Shown: positions 2,746 through 58,640 of the stretch, piece after piece | How positions within the stretch are numbered: the stretch's first letter is position 1 | Layout: each line of letters begins with the position of its first letter | Assembly (NCBI GenBank): GCA_964479165.1 | Contig: CAYZJO010000013.1 | Span: 9,386 to 73,385, forward strand | DNA from: an uncultured Dehalococcoidaceae bacterium | Lineage (GTDB): Bacteria > Chloroflexota > Dehalococcoidia > UBA2979 | DNA: 64,000 nucleotides | Direction: 5' to 3' | Notes under the pieces: generated by a model | Told to the model about the DNA's origin: nothing | Database searches by the model: none | Seen by the model: the letters and a program-made list of their open reading frames with translations, nothing else | Position numbers and translations under genes: made by a program

Positions 2746-5700
2746 CTATGCCTGGTAGAAGGCGCCGCTGAGGTACTGCTTCATCAGATCGGACTCGTAG
2801 CCCGCGCGGACTCCGTTCCGCGCGGGCGCCCAGAGGCCGCCCTCGGGCGCGCCGTCCTCGGCTCGCTCGAGCTTGATGAACGACTCCTTCGGCGCGCCGT
2901 TCGCGCAGTGGACGTCGCTCTCGAAGCCCTTGCCAAGTTCCTGGCCGAAGAACGGCTTGCGGACGAGGGTGTCGGTGAGCAGCGTGGGCCGAAGCCACGC
3001 GCGCACGCCGCTCTGATGGCTGCCGTGGCGGAACATCGCCTGGTACCCGGTCTCGGGCGTCTTCGCGAGTCCGTCCGCTCGCTCGAGGGCGCCGCGCACC
3101 GAGCCGCGCGTGGCGACGTACATGTTGTAGTACATGCGGATCACGCCGGGCTGCATCGCGTTCTGGTAGCGGGCGCGAGCCATGCCCCGAGAGACGAGGT
3201 AGTCCTCGTCACCCTCCTTCCAGCCTCGGTACGGGCGGTCGGACGGGTCCGCGTCGAACCAGACGTAGTCGCCGTCGTCGATCCCGAGGGCCTGTCCGTC
3301 CTCCGGGCTCAGCTCGAGGTACGCCTCGCCGACCCAGGGCGTCCGTTTGTCGTGCCGGTAGGCGTCGCCGAAGGGGCCGAAGAGCATGCTCATCCAGTCG
3401 AGGTCGACGGGCGTGCTGTGCGCGCCGTGGCGGTACTTTGGCGTCATGAAGAGGAAGCGGAACCGATCGTCCGCCGCGGTCAGCGGGTGAACGGTCCCCT
3501 TCAAGTCGGACCACGCCTTCACGACGTTACGGATCTGCCGCACCTCTGTGGAGAGGTCGTCGAGTGACAGTCCGTACTCGAGAGGTCCCGCCGGCGCGAT
3601 CAGCGGATGTGGCCGGCCGTGGATCACGTTCGGCTCGTAGAACGTCGAGTCGACCGGCTCCCGGAAGACAGGGAGGTTCTCGCCGTACTCGAGGAACTCC
3701 GGCTCGTCGCGATAGAACTCGAGCCGTCCCGAGCGGTTGTACCAGGGCTTGCTCTCCTGCCGCTGCTCCCAGCCGCCGTGGCGCGGGTAGGTGCGGAAGT
3801 TCATGAGGGCAGGGATGCCCTGCTGCGCCCGTTGCTCGAGTTCGAGCACGTCGTATCCGCGCGTGGTGCTCGACGCCGAGAAGATGCGCTGGAGGTACAC
3901 CTCGTCGCGGCCATCGAGGAGGAACCTCCAGTAGTCCCGGAAGCGCGACTCTCCTGTGTGCTCAGCGAGCTTCTCCGAGATGCCCGCCATGACCTCGGCA
4001 TCCCCGCGCGTGTCGTAGATGCGGTCCAGCGGACTCCGCGGCGCCATGTGCAGGAACGAGTTCGTGCACGACCCGGTCGCGTCGAGGTTCTTCCGTTCGC
4101 CCCAGGAGTCGACGCCGAAGACGATGTCGGCGTACTCGCACGACGCGGTCCACCACCACTCGTTGACAAAGATCGCCTCGATGCCGGGCAGCGTGTTGTG
4201 CACCACGTCGTGGTGCCACTTCGCGTTGCCGAGCAGCGAGTTGGAGTTGCCGAAGAGCATCGCCTTCGTCGGCGTCGGCATGTGTGTCTCGCCGGTGAAG
4301 TTCTTTGTGCCGCCTCGCAACGGCCGGTCCCCGTAGTTGTAGAAGTGCGCTGACTCGCCCTTGTAGTACGACCCGATAGCCGCGGGCTGCGTCGGGTCGA
4401 GCTGGGGATTGAACGGGTCTTCTTTGATCCACTGCGGGATGCCGTTGAAGATCGAGCCGCGGTAGTTGCCCGCGTAGGCCCCGACGTTCCCTCCGATGTG
4501 GCCCACATTGTCGGTCAGCGCTGCCAGCAGGAAGATCGCGCGATCCTTGAGGTCGGCGTTGAAGTAGTGGTTCGGCCCCATCCCCGTGGCGAGCAGCGAC
4601 TTCCCTCTCGCCGCGGCGATCTGCTTCGCGAGGCTCTCGATAGCTGCGGGCGGCGCCCATGTCACCTCGGAGGTCGTCGCGAGATCGAAGTTCTCGTCAA
4701 GGTAGCGTTTGACCTGGCCGAATACGGGCTGCACGGAGACCTGCGAGCCGTCCAGAAGCGTGACTGCGAACTCCCCCTCCAGTGCCGGTTCAACGCCGGT
4801 CTCACGGAAGCGGTCACCCACCTGGTCGCGGGTCACCGGGACGGCCTCACTCGTCCGCTCGTCCCAGACCATGAAGTCGCCCCACTCGGCGCGGAGCGAC
4901 TCGGACACATACTGCGTTCCCTGCAGTGCAGGCGCCGGTAGCCGTGTGCCACCGGGAACGACCTGTACGAAGTTGTCGAGCGGAGCAGGTTCGTAGTCTT
5001 CGACCACGTCGCGCGCGTTCAGGAGCTGGTGCGTGTCCATGCGCACGAGGAGCGGTAGGTCGGTCCACGCCTTGATGTGGTCTTCGTCGTGGAGGCCGTT
5101 CGCGAGGATGTATTGCGCGCAGCCGAGGGCCAGCGCCGCGTCGGTCCCCGGCCGGATCATGATGACCTCGTCGGAGCGGTTGGATGTCGACTGGTAGTCC
5201 GTGGAGACGTTGATGATGCGCGTGCCCTTCTGACGCGCCTCGGAGAGCCAGTGGCCGTCCGGCATCTTCGTGGAGATCCAGTTCATCCCGAAGGTCACGA
5301 CCAGGTCGGCGTACTCCGGCGCGAAGAGGTCGAACTCCACCGTTTGATGCCCGGTCACCATCGGGTGTCCGGGCGGCAGGTCGGTGTGCCACGTGTATGA
5401 GTCCCACCCGCGACCGCCGAGCGCCTCGTCGGGGCCGACACCCCGGATGTGGTCATCCAGCAGCCCGAGCATGTTGGCGAAGCGGTAGAAGCTGTAGATG
5501 CGGTAGATGCCGAGGAGCGGCATGCCGCCTCGCACCTTGATGACCTGCGTCCCCGCCTCGTGCGCTGCCTCCACCATCGCGGGGTCGTACCCCTGCGCTG
5601 TGAGCCGCGCGGCGCCCTCCGCGCCCGAGTATGTGCGCGCGATATCGAGGTAGGTGCGCGCCGCGAGGTCGAAGGCCTCGTCCCAGGGGATCTTCACCCA

Positions 5701-22292: not shown

Positions 22293-22299
22293 GGTGCCC

Positions 22300-23760
22300 T
22301 GGGCATCGGCCCCCGCACTGAGGCGCGCACGCCGCTCCGGTGACTATGCCGCCTCTCTGTAGCCTCCCACCGGTAGTGGCTGCTCGTTCGCGCGGGCTGC
22401 CGTCTACTGGCTCCGGCGAGGCGGACTGACCCCACTATGCCGTGGCGGATCTCCTGCCCTAGCTATGACGTGTCGTCCCCTCGCGGGAGCCCCCGGGCTT
22501 GACCTGATCGAAGCCGGTCGATCGACCCGAGAGAGGCCGTCAGCCCGGTAGCAGTGACTACGGTACGGCGGGAGGTCGAAATGATCACGATCGGTGTGGA
22601 CGCCCACAAGCGCGTGGATGTGGCACTGGCGTTGGACGACGCGGGACGCGAACTCAGCGAATGGCGCGGCCCGAACAGCGAGCTCGGTTGGCGCCGCCTC
22701 GAGCAGTGGGCGAGCGCTCTCGGCGCCGAGCGCCGGGTCGGCATCGAAGGCGCCTGGGGGTACGGACGTGGCCTCGCTCAGCATCTCATCGCCGCCGGCG
22801 AAACGGTGCATGAGGTCAACCCCCGCTGGACTGCAGACGGGCGTCGCAGTGCCCGTAAGCCCGACAAGACCGACCGTCAGGACGCTCGCGCCGTGGCGCT
22901 GTTCGTCCAGCGTGAGGCGTCCAACTTGCCGACGATCAGCGCCGAAGACGAGACCGCGCTGCTCGACCTGCTTGCCACGGAACGCGAAGCAGCCGTGGTC
23001 GAGTCGACGCGTCTGCGCAATCGTCTGCATGCCCTGCTCTCGCAGCTCGACCCGGAGTACCACCTGCACATGCCGCCCATGGTGACTAAGGCCGGACGGG
23101 CCGCGCTCCGCGCGTACGAGGCTTCGGACGATCGGTCGATCAGCCTCGAGCGAGCGGCCAGCATGCGACGGCTCGCCGAACGGCTCGAGCTCGTCGTCAG
23201 TCAGGCAGAGGCGATAGCTCGCCGCATCCGTGAGCTGGCCAAGCAAACGCTTCGCTCCGCTCACCGAGCTCCATGGCGTGAGCCTGCTCACGGCGGGGAC
23301 CATCGCTGGCATCCTCGGCCCTGGCCGGCGCTTCAGCAGCGATGCCGCCCTCGCGGCCTTCGCCGCCGCCTGCCCGCTCGAGGCCTCCTCCGCCGGCCAC
23401 GTGCGCCATCGACTCAACCGGGGCGGCAACCGACGGTTGAACGCGATCCTCTACCGCATCGCCCTCACGCAGGCACACTCCTCGCCCCTTGGCCGTGCCT
23501 ACATCGCGCGCCGACGACTGGAGGGCAAGTCCTGGCGCGAGGCTGTTCGCGCGCTGAAACGTCACCTCGTCCGCGCGCTATGGCGGCTGTTGCCGATCGG
23601 CGCCCGACCGGGTCTCAGAACTGGCGGCAGCCCCGAGCGCTTGAACATAGAAGCGTCTCTCTACTCACGCCCTGTCGCAGTCGCTCCACCGCTAGTCGTA
23701 GCCAATGCCTGCATGGACAGCCGTGCGGCGAACTGCGGCCCGAGTGCGCTGCAGGCGAGT
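22300..23760 (+). mobile_element. IS110-family insertion sequence, with a non-coding left end of about 280 bp and a frameshifted transposase. The boundaries are approximate.
   Basis: See the transposase feature below. IS110-family elements lack terminal inverted repeats and carry long non-coding ends. Confidence 0.5.
22581..23640 (+). pseudogene. IS110-family transposase (DEDD N-domain plus Transposase_20 C-domain), frameshifted near 23240-23260. The 3' end is uncertain.
   Basis: ATG at 22581 with GGAGGT RBS. MITIGVDAHKRVDVALALDDAGRELSEW...RIRELAKQ in frame 1. FAPLTELHGVSLLTAGTIAGILGPGRRFSSDAALAAFAAACPLEASSAGHV...NRRLNAILYRIALTQ...GKSWREAVRALKRHLVRALWRLL follows in frame 2 (track ORF 23230..23889). 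Confidence 0.7.
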
Positions 23761-23794: not shown

Positions 23795-24034
23795 ATGCGC
23801 ATCACGTCGAAGGGCCAGGTCACCATCCCCCAGGAGATCCGGGAGCGAGCCGGTCTCCTCCCAGACACCGAAGTCGAGTTCGTGCTTGAGCAGAATGGCG
23901 TGCGCATCGTGAAGGTCCACGACGCGCCGAGGCCGACACGAGGGGCAAAGACCGTCGAGGCCCTGCGCCGGGGCGGCGGACGGGTGAGCATGTCGACCGA
24001 TGAGATCATGGCACTCACGCGCGGCGAGTCGTGA
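23795..24034 (+). CDS. vapB: VapB-type antitoxin (AbrB/MazE/SpoVT fold).
   Basis: MRITSKGQVTIPQEIRERAGLLPDTEVEF... GAGGAG RBS 6 nt upstream. Its stop overlaps the vapC start (GTGA). Confidence 0.8.
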   Translation: MRITSKGQVTIPQEIRERAGLLPDTEVEFVLEQNGVRIVKVHDAPRPTRGAKTVEALRRGGGRVSMSTDEIMALTRGES

Positions 24035-24441
24035 GCCCGGTCCTCGTTGACAGCAACGTGCTCCTTGATGTCGTGACCGGCGATCCACGTTTCGGTGCGT
24101 GGTCCGCCGAGGCCCTGGCGAGCCTGGCGGACGAGGAGATCGTCGTCATCAACGCGCTCATCTACGCTGAGGTATCGATTGGCTTTGAAACCGTCGAGGC
24201 ACTGGAAGCGGCGCTCCCGCTCGAGCTGTACCGGCGGGAGGACCTTCCGTACGAGGCGGGCTTCCTCGCGGGAAAGGTCTTCCTCCAGTACCGGCTTGCA
24301 GGCGGCGTCCGGCGCTCGCCCCTACCCGACTTCTATATCGGCGCGCACGCCGCGGTCGCCGGGTATCGGTTGCTGACCCGAGACGCGGCGCGGTACCGAT
24401 CGTACTTCCCACGGCTGGAGCTCATCGCGCCCAGCAACTGA
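24031..24441 (+). CDS. vapC: VapC-type PIN-domain toxin.
   Basis: MSPVLVDSNVLLDVVTGD...VVINALIYAEVSIGF...LPDFYIGAHAAVAGYRLLTRDAARY. A 4-nt overlap with vapB. Confidence 0.85.
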   Translation: MSPVLVDSNVLLDVVTGDPRFGAWSAEALASLADEEIVVINALIYAEVSIGFETVEALEAALPLELYRREDLPYEAGFLAGKVFLQYRLAGGVRRSPLPDFYIGAHAAVAGYRLLTRDAARYRSYFPRLELIAPSN

Positions 24442-24629: not shown

Positions 24630-25010
24630 GGCCTACCGCCTCGCGGCGCTTGAGGGCTCGCAGCGCGACTGGCTCGGGCGGTTCGCGCGGGACGAGTTCG
24701 AGGACCTGTTGCGCGCGCTGCGGGACGGGGACCACGAGACCGACTGACCTCGCCCGCGACCGAGATGCGGGCCCCCGTCCGAGGGGTCTGCTTCGTACAG
24801 GCAGCGTCGGCTATCCGCCCAAACCGACCCGGCGATCCTCGGGGCTGGAGCGCCCGGCGGTGTCGCTCGACGCGCGCCGTGCGGCGCAAGGGCCCGGCCT
24901 CCTCCCGTCGTTCAGGGGCACGGCGCGATCTTCCCCACGGACAGCACGTGCGCGACGAGAGTGCGCCCAGCGGGGACGTCGGTCAGCTCCGACCCTCCGT
25001 TAGGCTCACT
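24630..25010. repeat. Copy A of a three-copy noncoding repeat family. The repeat is preceded by the 3' end of a small decayed ORF (...LEGSQRDWLGRFARDEFEDLLRALRDGDHETD).
   Basis: Blocks are shared with copy B (32540-32900) and copy C (33244-33470): GCYTCGTACARGC, ATCCnTCATyGGCCCG, GGCCGCCCTCCT, CGCGATCTTyCCC, CGAGAGTGCGC and a 3' TTAGSCTC. The blocks fall in different reading frames in the three copies. Confidence 0.5.
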
Positions 25011-56996: not shown

Positions 56997-57392
56997 CTAG
57001 GGCGACATGCACGTAGACCTCGAAAACCTTCGAACCAGCGGATCGTCCACCTCGATGAACTGGACGTCCCACGCCGCTACCAACGCCTTTGCCTCGGCGA
57101 AGTGCTGCGCGAACTCCGGGTCGGACTCGAGCTTGGCGCGGGTCTGACGGGCGAGTTCACTCCCCGCCTCCGCACAGCCGCCCCGGGCCATAAGGAACGC
57201 GAGAGTTGCGCTGCAGTGTGTTCCACTCGGCCGAGTGTGTTGTCCGAGGCGCGTTCGTAGGTTGCGCGTCTGCCCAACGTAACGGTACTGACCGCCATCG
57301 CTAAATAGATAAATGCCGGGCGCTGCAGGCACGCTGCCCCGTGCACGCGGCGCACGAGGTCGCGCGAACAACTGCTCAAGGAGCGGACGCAT
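56997..57392 (-). CDS. GIY-YIG nuclease-domain protein of about 131 aa.
   Basis: APGIYLFSDGGQYRYVGQTRNLRTRLGQH... The upstream part of the 436-aa track ORF looks spurious. Confidence 0.6.
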   Translation of the reverse strand: MRPLLEQLFARPRAPRARGSVPAAPGIYLFSDGGQYRYVGQTRNLRTRLGQHTRPSGTHCSATLAFLMARGGCAEAGSELARQTRAKLESDPEFAQHFAEAKALVAAWDVQFIEVDDPLVRRFSRSTCMSP

Positions 57393-57399
57393 CTTCGAC

Positions 57400-58640
<1,241 letters not shown>

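What the first reader, a model, noticed from the sequence alone, without database searches (positions are those of the whole stretch)
22300..22580. Long noncoding left ends upstream of both IS110-family transposases: candidate guide-RNA loci
Both IS110-family genes (22581 and 57696) are preceded by about 280 bp of GC-rich noncoding DNA with no convincing ORF (22300-22580 and 57400-57695). In this family the noncoding end encodes the structured RNA that base-pairs with target and donor DNA. The second copy sits exactly between an orphaned OppA-like gene and a GIY-YIG gene, consistent with insertion into an operon. The first copy abuts the repeat family.
Basis: partly seen in the sequence, partly recalled or inferred. 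Interest (0 to 1): 0.5.

Follow-up and report, generated by a model that had tools for sequence, protein, structure and literature searches.

The report
Bridge-RNA genes in two defective IS110 elements

Summary
Both upstream regions are real and lie mostly inside the insertion sequences. IS_A spans 22355-23656, with a 226-nt left end at 22355-22580. IS_B spans 57501-58531, with a 195-nt left end at 57501-57695.

In 19 relatives of IS_A and 34 of IS_B, each left end folds into two stem / internal-loop / hairpin modules. Compensatory changes support 15 of 27 and 16 of 27 base pairs.

The first loop covaries with the flanking DNA. Its 5' strand repeats the left flank and its 3' strand is complementary to the right flank (0 of 20,000 and 0 of 5,000 permutations). 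The second loop matches the element's own ends, including handshake positions.

In the window, 9-mers of both first loops equal the left flank exactly (22343-22351 = 22434-22442; 57492-57500 = 57559-57567).

This is the IS621-type bridge RNA architecture. Both transposases hit NCBIfam "IS110 family RNA-guided transposase".

Both copies are defective. IS_A has a +1 and a -8 frameshift and a right flank its guide does not specify. IS_B has lost its last ~35 codons and its right end.

Verdict: interpretation supported; new members of a known kind; modest interest.

The parts
22312..22354 (+). Left flank of IS_A. It is the left half of an interrupted copy of a repeated intergenic sequence and contains the left target.
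   Evidence: Aligns with 32392-~32430 of the uninterrupted paralogous copy.
22343..22351 (+). Left target (LT) of IS_A, ACTATGCCG. It is followed by C and a core-like CT at 22353-22354.
   Evidence: Identical to 22434-22442 inside the RNA. These are the only two exact copies of this 9-mer in the window on either strand.
22355..22580 (+). IS_A left end (LE), the bridge RNA gene, 226 nt. It starts at CTCTGT.
   Evidence: Homology with 18 relatives begins at this motif. The single-sequence fold has z = -3.3. The consensus structure has 27 pairs, 94% paired, 15 with compensatory change, 0/500 shuffles.
22416..22484 (+). IS_A target-binding loop module. Outer stem 22416-22430 pairs with 22472-22484. 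LTG is 22433-22443 (CACUAUGCCGU). The apical hairpin is 22444-22458. The 3' strand is 22459-22471, with RTG 22462-22470 (GCUAUGACG).
   Evidence: Helices 1-4. LTG-LT and RTG-RT covary across lineages (0/20000 permutations each). The RTG reverse complement CGTCATAGC equals the right junction of sister copies L045/L046.
22493..22548 (+). IS_A donor-binding loop module. Outer stem 22493-22502 pairs with 22539-22548. The LDG strand is 22500-22515 (..CUGAUCGAAGCC). The apical hairpin is 22516-22527. The RDG plus handshake strand is 22528-22541 (CGAGAGAGGCCGUC).
   Evidence: Helix 5 (10 pairs, 6 with compensatory change). LDG has the same sense as the right end ACATAGAAGC. GAAGC versus GGAGC covaries in RNA and RE in win/L045/L012. 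The RDG reverse complement matches the left junction, including 2-4 nt of LT.
22581..23644 (+). IS_A transposase pseudogene. The DEDD domain is in frame 1, the Tnp domain in frame 2 and the tail in frame 3.
   Evidence: Pfam. The alignment to intact 353-356 aa homologs shows breaks. There is a +1 nt insertion at about 23245 and an 8-nt deletion at 23590 relative to L045. The same sequence is in an independent Logan assembly.
23640..23656 (+). IS_A right end, CTTGAACATAGAAGCGT. It contains a -35-like TTGAAC at 23641-23646.
   Evidence: Conserved RE motif in relatives. In the circle junction it lies 17 nt from a TAnnnT hexamer in the LE.
23657..23740 (+). Right flank of IS_A. It starts with a core-like CT (23657-58) followed by CTCTAC. 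It is the right half of the interrupted repeat copy.
   Evidence: Aligns with 32440-32527. It matches the RTG-specified target at only 1 of 8 positions and instead resembles the element's own right-donor arm CT-CTCT.
57490..57500 (+). Left target of IS_B (CCTGACCCC) plus the core CT (57499-57500).
   Evidence: TGACCCCCT at 57492-57500 equals 57559-57567 in the RNA. CT precedes TGTATCT in nearly all of the 69 loci; 2 read TT.
57501..57695 (+). IS_B left end, the bridge RNA gene, 195 nt. It starts at TGTATCT. A Shine-Dalgarno AGGAGGG lies at 57685-57691, ahead of the GTG start at 57696.
   Evidence: Homology with L127 starts at 57492. The LE motif is conserved in 69 loci. The consensus structure has 27 pairs, 16 with compensatory change.
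57543..57607 (+). IS_B target-binding loop module. Outer stem 57543-57557 pairs with 57594-57607. LTG is 57558-57567 (GUGACCCCCU). The apical hairpin is 57568-57581. RTG is 57582-57591 (GUGUUUCAGC), which specifies the right target G-CT-GAAACAC.
   Evidence: LTG/RTG covary with flanks in the family (0/5000 permutations each).
57624..57668 (+). IS_B donor-binding loop module. It comprises CCC, then LDG 57627-57635 (GAAGAGUUG), an apical hairpin at 57639-57651, RDG CAAGG at 57659-57663, and the closing GGG(G) at 57665-57668.
   Evidence: The conserved motif CCGAACAGUUG has the same sense as the family right end ..ACAGTTG. CAAGG is complementary to C-CT-TG at the left junction.
57696..58531 (+). 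IS_B transposase, truncated at the 3' end. The ORF reads on to 58634 through unrelated sequence.
   Evidence: Pfam. IS621 8wt6 E = 1.3e-38 over residues 2-279. Homologs carry a conserved C-terminal ..GKPKKVALVACMRKLL.. that is absent here. DNA homology to L127 stops at 58531, while L127 continues for about 105 nt of CDS plus the RE.

Best explanation
Each of the two upstream regions is the left end of an IS110-group insertion sequence and encodes a bridge RNA.

The RNA has two modules, each an outer stem, an internal loop and an apical hairpin. In the first (target-binding) loop, the 5' strand (LTG) has the same sequence as the DNA left of the insertion point, so it pairs with the bottom strand. 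The 3' strand (RTG) is complementary to the DNA right of it. In the second (donor-binding) loop, the 5' strand (LDG) repeats the element's right end. The 3' strand (RDG) is complementary to the start of its left end. Extra handshake bases in each loop pair with the other duplex after strand exchange.

Bound by the DEDD/serine recombinase, the RNA would align the circularised element (RE-core-LE) with a chosen target and direct recombination at a short core. A promoter assembled across the RE-LE junction would drive the RNA in the circle.

Shown here: the structure, the covariation of loops with flanks and ends, and the protein homology. Inferred from IS621 work: transcription, protein binding and recombination.

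Both window copies are relics. IS_A has a frameshifted transposase, one mismatch in its LDG and a 1-nt deletion in the RDG strand. IS_B has lost its C-terminal coding part and its right end. Neither can move on its own.
For: Family membership: Pfam DEDD_Tnp_IS110 plus Transposase_20. NCBIfam NF033542 'IS110 family RNA-guided transposase' scores 196.5 and 184.1 bits against a cutoff of 140. IS_B against IS621 8wt6 gives E = 1.3e-38, with the DEDD and Ser positions aligned.

Boundaries: for IS_A and for IS_B. An uninterrupted paralogous copy spans the IS_A insertion point.

Structure: for IS_A, 27 pairs, 94.4% paired against 37-45% when slid, 15 pairs with compensatory change, 0/500 shuffles on all five measures. 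For IS_B, 27 pairs, 16 with compensatory change.

Guides: in the IS_A family, LTG against own left junction averages 6.8/11 versus 4.05 for other loci, even in a rigid register, and RTG against own right junction is 5-7 of 8 in 13 of 14 lineages; both give 0/20000 permutations. In the IS_B family, LTG averages 6.3 versus 4.4 and RTG 5.2 versus 2.2 of 8; both give 0/5000. In the window, ACTATGCCG occurs only at 22343 and 22434, and TGACCCCCT at 57492 and 57559.

Donor loop: LDG matches the right end, with covarying GAAGC/GGAGC and ATAGG/AGAGG. The reverse complement of the RDG strand equals LT(2-4 nt)+core+RD, for example AGTACTCTCT in L012.

Orientation of all four guides matches the published definition (PMC11208160) and the handshake guides match PMC11208158.

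Junction promoter: TTGACA-like, 17 nt, then TAnnnT at a fixed position in 15 of 16 IS_A-family circle junctions, mean 8.1/12 versus 6.2/12 for integrated junctions.
Against: There is no expression, binding or recombination data.

No sigma-70-like promoter lies upstream of either integrated copy.

No Rfam family matches at the gathering threshold.

The IS_A right flank matches its RTG at only 1 of 8 positions.

The IS_A LDG has an A-to-C mismatch to its own right end, and its DBL 3' strand lacks one C relative to L045.

The RTG and LDG of IS_B cannot be tested in the window because the right end is gone.

In the IS_A family the exact crossover dinucleotide is ambiguous by about 2 nt.

In the IS_B family the LDG does not visibly include the core.
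Confidence: 0.9

Rival explanations
1. The upstream regions are ordinary 5' UTRs or regulatory leaders. They would control transposase translation or stability through structure and have no guide function.
For: They lie directly upstream of the start codons and end in Shine-Dalgarno sequences. Earlier literature proposed regulatory roles for IS110 ends (PMC11208160).
Against: A purely regulatory leader has no reason to carry segments that covary with DNA outside the element, as the left and right flanks do here (0/20000 and 0/5000 permutations). Nor should it mirror the element's own termini, including handshake positions.
Confidence: 0.04
2. The regions, or part of them, are coding. They would be an N-terminal extension of the transposase (the ORF from 57558, and the extended gene calls P0122 and P0133) or a small upstream peptide.
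For: ORF 57558..58634 is open. Two database homologs were called with similar N-terminal extensions.
Against: Most homologs start at the conserved M..W.GVDVSK. A Shine-Dalgarno precedes 57696. Substitutions across the family are compensatory in stems, and indels are not multiples of three. In DNA of 67% GC, long spurious ORFs are expected.
Confidence: 0.02
3. The identity between the internal segment and the flank is a DNA-level feature rather than an RNA guide. It could be a subterminal repeat bound by the transposase, or a duplication made on insertion.
For: Short direct repeats between flank and element (22343-22351 / 22434-22442; 57492-57500 / 57559-57567) could in principle be protein-binding sites.
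Against: The repeated segment always sits in the internal loop of a covariation-supported RNA structure. It is paired with a second segment complementary to the opposite flank. Homologous recombinases (IS621, ISCro4) have solved structures, and for IS621 the published cryo-EM structures are in complex with bridge RNA.
Confidence: 0.03

Closest known systems
IS621 bridge recombinase / bridge RNA system (E. coli; Durrant et al. 2024, PMC11208160; Hiraizumi et al. 2024, PMC11208158)
   Same: It has a DEDD RuvC-like domain plus a Tnp domain with a catalytic Ser, a long LE and a short RE. The LE RNA has a target-binding and a donor-binding internal loop. LTG and LDG have the sense of the top strand, while RTG and RDG are antisense. 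It has handshake guides and a CT core (invariant at the right junction and near-invariant at the left in the IS_B family), and a promoter is rebuilt at the RE-LE junction. IS_B protein against 8wt6 gives E = 1.3e-38.
   Different: The hosts are Chloroflexota-type, high-GC genomes. The IS_A family is distant from IS621 (E about 5e-7, Tnp domain only). Its guides are long (LTG 9-11 nt, RTG about 6-9 nt), both loops are framed by UGAC...GUC, and the crossover dinucleotide is not clearly CT on both sides. In the IS_B family the LDG stops at ..GUUG without an evident core match. Both window copies are inactive relics.
ISCro4 transposase (PDB 9t56)
   Same: It is the second solved homolog. IS_B gives E = 2.5e-37 and IS_A-type P0001 gives E = 1.9e-7.
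   Different: Only protein homology was tested. Its RNA was not compared.
IS1111 group / seekRNA elements (own knowledge: Siddiquee et al. 2024; the group is described in PMC11208160)
   Same: It belongs to the same recombinase superfamily and uses an RNA guide with target and donor loops.
   Different: IS1111 elements carry the RNA in a long RE and have 7-17 bp subterminal inverted repeats. Here the RNA is in the LE and the RE is 12-20 nt.
Rfam RF02234 sX15 (Xanthomonadaceae sRNA)
   Same: It is the only Rfam model with any signal on the IS_B LE (57534-57681, 29.7 bits). Its reverse complement carries the donor-loop motif CCCGAACAGUUG. sX15 and asX7 are a complementary pair with 10 copies in S. 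maltophilia (PMC3300014).
   Different: The hit is on the opposite strand and below the gathering score of 55. This is a lead that sX15 models the antisense of an IS110 left end, not a membership.

Membership tests
IS110 family, IS110 group (bridge-RNA-guided IS) | Recombinase with an N-terminal DEDD RuvC-like domain and a C-terminal Tnp domain carrying a conserved Ser | tested here: met
   Pfam PF01548 plus PF02371. NF033542 is above its cutoff for IS_B and for the IS_A sister P0001. D, E, D, D and S align with IS621 for IS_B and are invariant in both family alignments. In the window the IS_A ORF is broken by two frameshifts and the IS_B ORF is truncated.
IS110 family, IS110 group (bridge-RNA-guided IS) | Long noncoding left end and short right end, with no terminal inverted repeats | tested here: met
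   IS_A has an LE of 226 nt and an RE of 12 nt after the stop codon. IS_B has an LE of 195 nt, and its relatives have an RE of about 16-20 nt. By inspection the ends CTCTGTAG.. / ..GAAGCGT and TGTATCT.. / ..ACAGTTG are not inverted repeats.
IS110 family, IS110 group (bridge-RNA-guided IS) | LE RNA with two internal loops held by conserved stems | tested here: met
   IS_A family; IS_B family. 15 and 16 of 27 pairs have compensatory changes, and the shuffle and slide controls are far lower.
IS110 family, IS110 group (bridge-RNA-guided IS) | [quoted passage not shown] | tested here: met
   Family-wide covariation. In the window the LTG is met for both copies with 9/9 identity. The RTG is not met for IS_A (1/8) and is untestable for IS_B because the right junction is lost.
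IS110 family, IS110 group (bridge-RNA-guided IS) | Donor-binding loop: LDG matches the right end and RDG is complementary to the start of the left end | tested here: met
   IS_A: AUCGAAGC against ATAGAAGC (7/8, perfect in L045), and the RDG reverse complement CCTCTCT equals the left junction. IS_B: CAAGG against CCTTG in the window, and LDG ..ACAGUUG against RE ..ACAGTTG in relatives. The window RE is missing.
IS110 family, IS110 group (bridge-RNA-guided IS) | Same short core (CT in IS621) flanking both ends and present in all four guide pairings | tested here: inconclusive
   In the IS_B family CT is at both junctions in nearly all loci, but the LDG does not show it. In the IS_A window copy CT is on both sides. 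Across relatives the left dinucleotide is YT/TG, while the right one varies and follows the RTG.
IS110 family, IS110 group (bridge-RNA-guided IS) | Handshake guides complementary to the non-cognate duplex next to the core | tested here: met
   The DBL 3' strand covaries with the last 2-4 nt of LT. The TBL 3' strand extends into the last 2-3 nt of the RE. The definition is from PMC11208158.
IS110 family, IS110 group (bridge-RNA-guided IS) | Promoter reconstituted across the RE-LE circle junction | tested here: inconclusive
   In silico, TTGACA-like, 17 nt, then TAnnnT sits at a fixed position in the IS_A family (window: TTGAAC-17-TAGCCT, 7/12). Two alternative arrangements are possible in the IS_B family. 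This rests on sequence only.
IS110 family, IS110 group (bridge-RNA-guided IS) | RNA is expressed, bound by the recombinase and programs recombination | not testable with these tools
   No transcriptome or biochemistry is available.
IS1111 group (RNA in the right end, long subterminal inverted repeats) | Long RE carrying the guide RNA, with a short LE | tested here: not met
   The RE is 12-20 nt and the LE 195-226 nt.
Rfam RF02234 sX15 | Score at or above the gathering threshold, on the modelled strand | tested here: not met
   29.7 bits against 55, on the minus strand relative to the transposase.

The most novel reading that the evidence does not exclude
The IS_A insertion, and that of its relative L011, may be a natural 'hybrid half-site' event. 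The site matches the target guide only on the left. On the right it copies the element's own right-donor arm (CT-CTCT). That would be an in-genome footprint of the half-match recombination so far reported only for IS621 in vitro and in engineered E. coli. A related possibility is that the structurally still largely intact bridge RNAs of these dead copies could be used in trans by intact sister elements elsewhere in the genome.
Probability: 0.12. Interest if true: 0.5.

Novelty: new member of a known kind. Interest (0 to 1): 0.3.

Why it matters
The result confirms, from sequence comparison alone, that two unrelated IS110 lineages from high-GC Chloroflexota-type genomes carry complete bridge RNAs with readable guide codes.

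The IS_A type specifies CACTATGCC..CATAGC. The IS_B type specifies TGACCCC-CT-GAAACAC.

The IS_A lineage is distant from IS621 and uses long guides, which could interest people mining new bridge recombinases. Intact sister copies such as L045 would be the ones to test.

For annotating this window, it explains about 420 nt of 'noncoding' DNA. It also flags two transposase genes as pseudogenes, and it shows that gene calls extending over the left end (the ORF from 57558) are wrong.

Tried and rejected
- Rfam 15 at the gathering threshold found nothing on the whole window. At a permissive E-value only chance-level hits appeared, plus the antisense sX15 lead.
- Aligning the two left ends with each other showed no meaningful similarity. 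The transposases share only 33% identity over the N-terminal DEDD region, so each family was analysed separately.
- A single-sequence MFE fold of IS_A gives one long rod. I rejected it in favour of the covariation-supported two-module structure.
- Whole-RNA best-match scoring of flanks in the IS_B family had too little power. Anchored, fixed-register scoring replaced it.
- A search of the window for further composite targets found none with up to 3 mismatches. Family motifs occur nowhere else in the window.
- Guides were compared with the repeat copies at 32392-32527 and with the D1 and D2 repeats. Matches were at most 7/11 and 7/9, which is chance level.
- I considered whether the IS_A frameshifts are programmed or assembly errors. 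Intact homologs have one ORF, one lesion is an 8-nt deletion, and the Logan assembly is identical.
- I considered whether GACAG at 58532 is a remnant of the IS_B right end after an internal deletion. Only 5 nt match, so this is not supported.
- No sigma-70-like promoter or intrinsic terminator was found around either integrated left end.

Full report
**What is in the window**

Two IS110-family transposase genes are present on the + strand. The gene at 22581 (IS_A) carries a DEDD_Tnp_IS110 domain, and a Transposase_20 domain follows in a different reading frame. The gene at 57696 (IS_B) carries both domains in one frame. The two proteins share only 33% identity over the N-terminal DEDD region, and their upstream regions do not align. 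I therefore treated them as two independent cases.

The gene-free stretches before them are 22293-22580 (after the CorA stop) and about 57393-57695 (divergent from a small GIY-YIG gene). They are 69% and 67% GC in a window of 66.6% GC. Rfam 15 contains nothing that reaches threshold.

**IS_A: boundaries**

A protein search found more than 1,600 relatives, typically 353 aa. A genome scan returned 44 loci, mostly in Chloroflexota, Thermomicrobiales, Dehalococcoidia and Dormibacterota MAGs. Two Logan contigs (L045, L046) carry a 95%-identical intact sister copy.

Upstream alignments show that homology starts sharply at the motif CTCTGT, which is at window 22355. Downstream alignments show that it ends at ..ACATAG(G/A)AGCGT, at window 23656. 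IS_A is therefore 22355-23656 (1302 bp). Its left end is 226 nt, and only 12 nt follow the true stop codon at 23642-23644.

The flanks on the two sides are halves of a repeated intergenic sequence. That sequence is uninterrupted at 32392-32527, and the alignment runs across the insertion point. This independently shows that the segment is an insertion.

**IS_A: RNA structure**

On 19 sequences the consensus fold has two modules. With that structure, 94.4% of cells pair, against 37-45% when the 3' partners are slid by 1-3 columns. Fifteen of 27 pairs show changes on both sides, and none of 500 shuffles reaches any of the five measures.

- Module 1: outer stem 22416-22430 / 22472-22484, an internal loop, and the apical hairpin 22444-22458.
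- Module 2: outer stem 22493-22502 / 22539-22548, an internal loop, and the apical hairpin 22516-22527.

**IS_A: guide code**

The 5' strand of loop 1 (CACUAUGCCGU, 22433-22443) repeats the left flank (ACTATGCCG, 22343-22351). This 9-mer occurs nowhere else in the window on either strand. In 16 distinct lineages this segment changes together with the left flank, and in 14 lineages the reverse complement of the 3' strand changes together with the right junction. Both give 0 of 20,000 permutations.

Loop 2 mirrors the element itself. Its 5' strand repeats the right end, and the substitutions GAAGC/GGAGC and ATAGG/AGAGG occur in RNA and right end together. The reverse complement of its 3' strand reads LT(2-4 nt)+core+CTCT; in L012, for example, it is AGTACTCTCT.

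These orientations are exactly those defined for the IS621 bridge RNA (LTG, RTG, LDG, RDG; PMC11208160). The extra positions correspond to the handshake guides of PMC11208158.

In the reconstructed circle junction, a TTGACA-like hexamer in the right end lies 17 nt from a TAnnnT hexamer in the left end, at the same position in 15 of 16 loci. No promoter-like site precedes the integrated copy.

**IS_A: state of the window copy**

Relative to L045 the copy has a 1-nt insertion near 23245 and an 8-nt deletion at 23590, which puts the protein in three frames. The sequence is identical in an independent Logan assembly. The LDG has one mismatch to its own right end, and the RDG strand lacks one C.

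The right flank (CT-CTCTAC) matches the RTG-specified target (CA-TAGC, as seen in L045/L046) at 1 of 8 positions. It copies the element's own right-donor arm instead. L011, the only other locus without an RTG match, shows the same pattern. A recent preprint reports such half-match insertions for IS621. I record this as unexplained, not as shown.

**IS_B: boundaries**

Relatives are typically 310-317 aa and align only to residues 1-279 of the window protein. The conserved C-terminal helix ..GKPKKVALVACMRKLL.. is missing.

DNA homology with the 85%-identical L127 runs from 57492 to 58531 and then stops. L127 continues with about 105 nt of CDS and a short right end.

In 69 metagenomic loci the element starts CT|TGTATCT and ends ..(C)AAGACAGTTG|CT. 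The window copy is therefore 57501-58531, with the core CT at 57499-57500, and it has lost its right end. Homology with L127 begins 9 nt earlier because both copies sit in the same left target, TGACCCC-CT.

**IS_B: RNA and guides**

On 34 sequences the left end again forms two modules, and 16 of 27 pairs have compensatory changes.

With anchored registers, the segment after AGACCG matches its own left target at 6.3 of 9 positions, against 4.4 for other loci. The 8 nt before the conserved AGC match their own right target at 5.2 of 8, against 2.2. Both give 0 of 5,000 permutations.

In the window the LTG (57558-57567) contains TGACCCCCT, identical to 57492-57500. The RTG (57582-57591) specifies G-CT-GAAACAC. 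L127, which has the same RTG, has CT-GGAACGC at its right junction, a 5 of 7 match. The donor loop carries GAAGAGUUG, against the family right end ACAGTTG, and CAAGG, against CCTTG at the left junction.

The protein is a clear homolog of IS621 (8wt6, E = 1.3e-38) with the catalytic positions aligned. Both element types hit NCBIfam NF033542, 'IS110 family RNA-guided transposase'.

**Comparison and verdict**

Every sequence-level defining feature of an IS110-group bridge-RNA element that I tested is met at the family level, apart from two left inconclusive: the core dinucleotide and the circle-junction promoter. Three other things remain open: the exact crossover dinucleotide in the IS_A lineage, the absence of a visible core match in the IS_B LDG, and all functional properties.

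The IS1111 arrangement (RNA in a long right end) is excluded. The proposed complementarity to the other repeat copies is not, and the operon idea is untested.

These are new, uncharacterised members of a known kind, and both window copies are dead. Interest is modest. The value lies in correct annotation, in a distant long-guide lineage (the IS_A type) whose intact sisters could be tested, and in two side observations: the hybrid LT+RD insertion site and the antisense Rfam sX15 lead.

Noticed in passing
window 23657-23664; L011 right junction: The IS_A right flank (CT-CTCTAC) does not fit its RTG but copies the element's own right-donor arm. L011 (CT-CTCTAT) does the same. These are the only 2 of 17 loci without an RTG match. 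It resembles the 'half-match' insertions reported for IS621.
   Followed up: partly
window 22312-22354 + 23657-23740 versus 32392-32527; also 24649-24786 versus 32558-32695: IS_A interrupts one copy of a repeated intergenic or small-ORF region. In the first copy the MazE/PIN toxin-antitoxin pair (23795-24441) lies between two repeat segments. In the second copy those segments are only about 55 nt apart, so the TA module looks like a separate insertion or deletion.
   Followed up: partly
window 57534-57681 (-): There is a sub-threshold Rfam hit to sX15 (RF02234) on the strand opposite the bridge RNA. The model's reverse complement contains the donor-loop motif CCCGAACAGUUG. sX15 and asX7 are complementary and multicopy in Stenotrophomonas. 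The Rfam family probably models the antisense of an IS110 left end.
   Followed up: partly
window 57558-57695; proteins P0122, P0133: Gene callers extend the transposase ORF upstream across the bridge RNA region, giving 46-aa N-terminal 'extensions'. These look like annotation artefacts of GC-rich DNA.
   Followed up: partly
window 56997-58307 (-): A 436-aa ORF runs antisense through IS_B. Only its last ~131 codons (56997-57392) look like a real GIY-YIG gene. The rest is an open frame of GC-rich DNA.
   Followed up: partly
window 58607-58632: A strong GC hairpin (GGGGCCGGGC-TTAC-GCCCGACCCC) lies just downstream of the OppA-like gene's stop codon, with no T-run. Relatives of IS_B often sit next to similar GC hairpins (L127, L049, L059 flanks).
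   Followed up: no
L008:1746-2000 and L018:1767-2000: Two IS_A relatives carry a ~60-nt G/C-only expansion (GGGGGAGCGGGGGCGCC..CCCCCCCCCCCCGCC) in the apical hairpin of the donor-binding module.
   Followed up: no
L033, right flank about 3100-3160: The right flank of this IS_A relative contains GGTTCGATCCCCGTCTCCCGCTCCA, which looks like the 3' end of a tRNA gene. tRNA search was not run.
   Followed up: no
L007 and L015 (same MAG); L001 and L014 (same MAG): Identical elements inserted at two sites in one genome share about 16 nt on the left and about 7 nt on the right of the junctions. This gives direct within-genome evidence of target specificity.
   Followed up: partly
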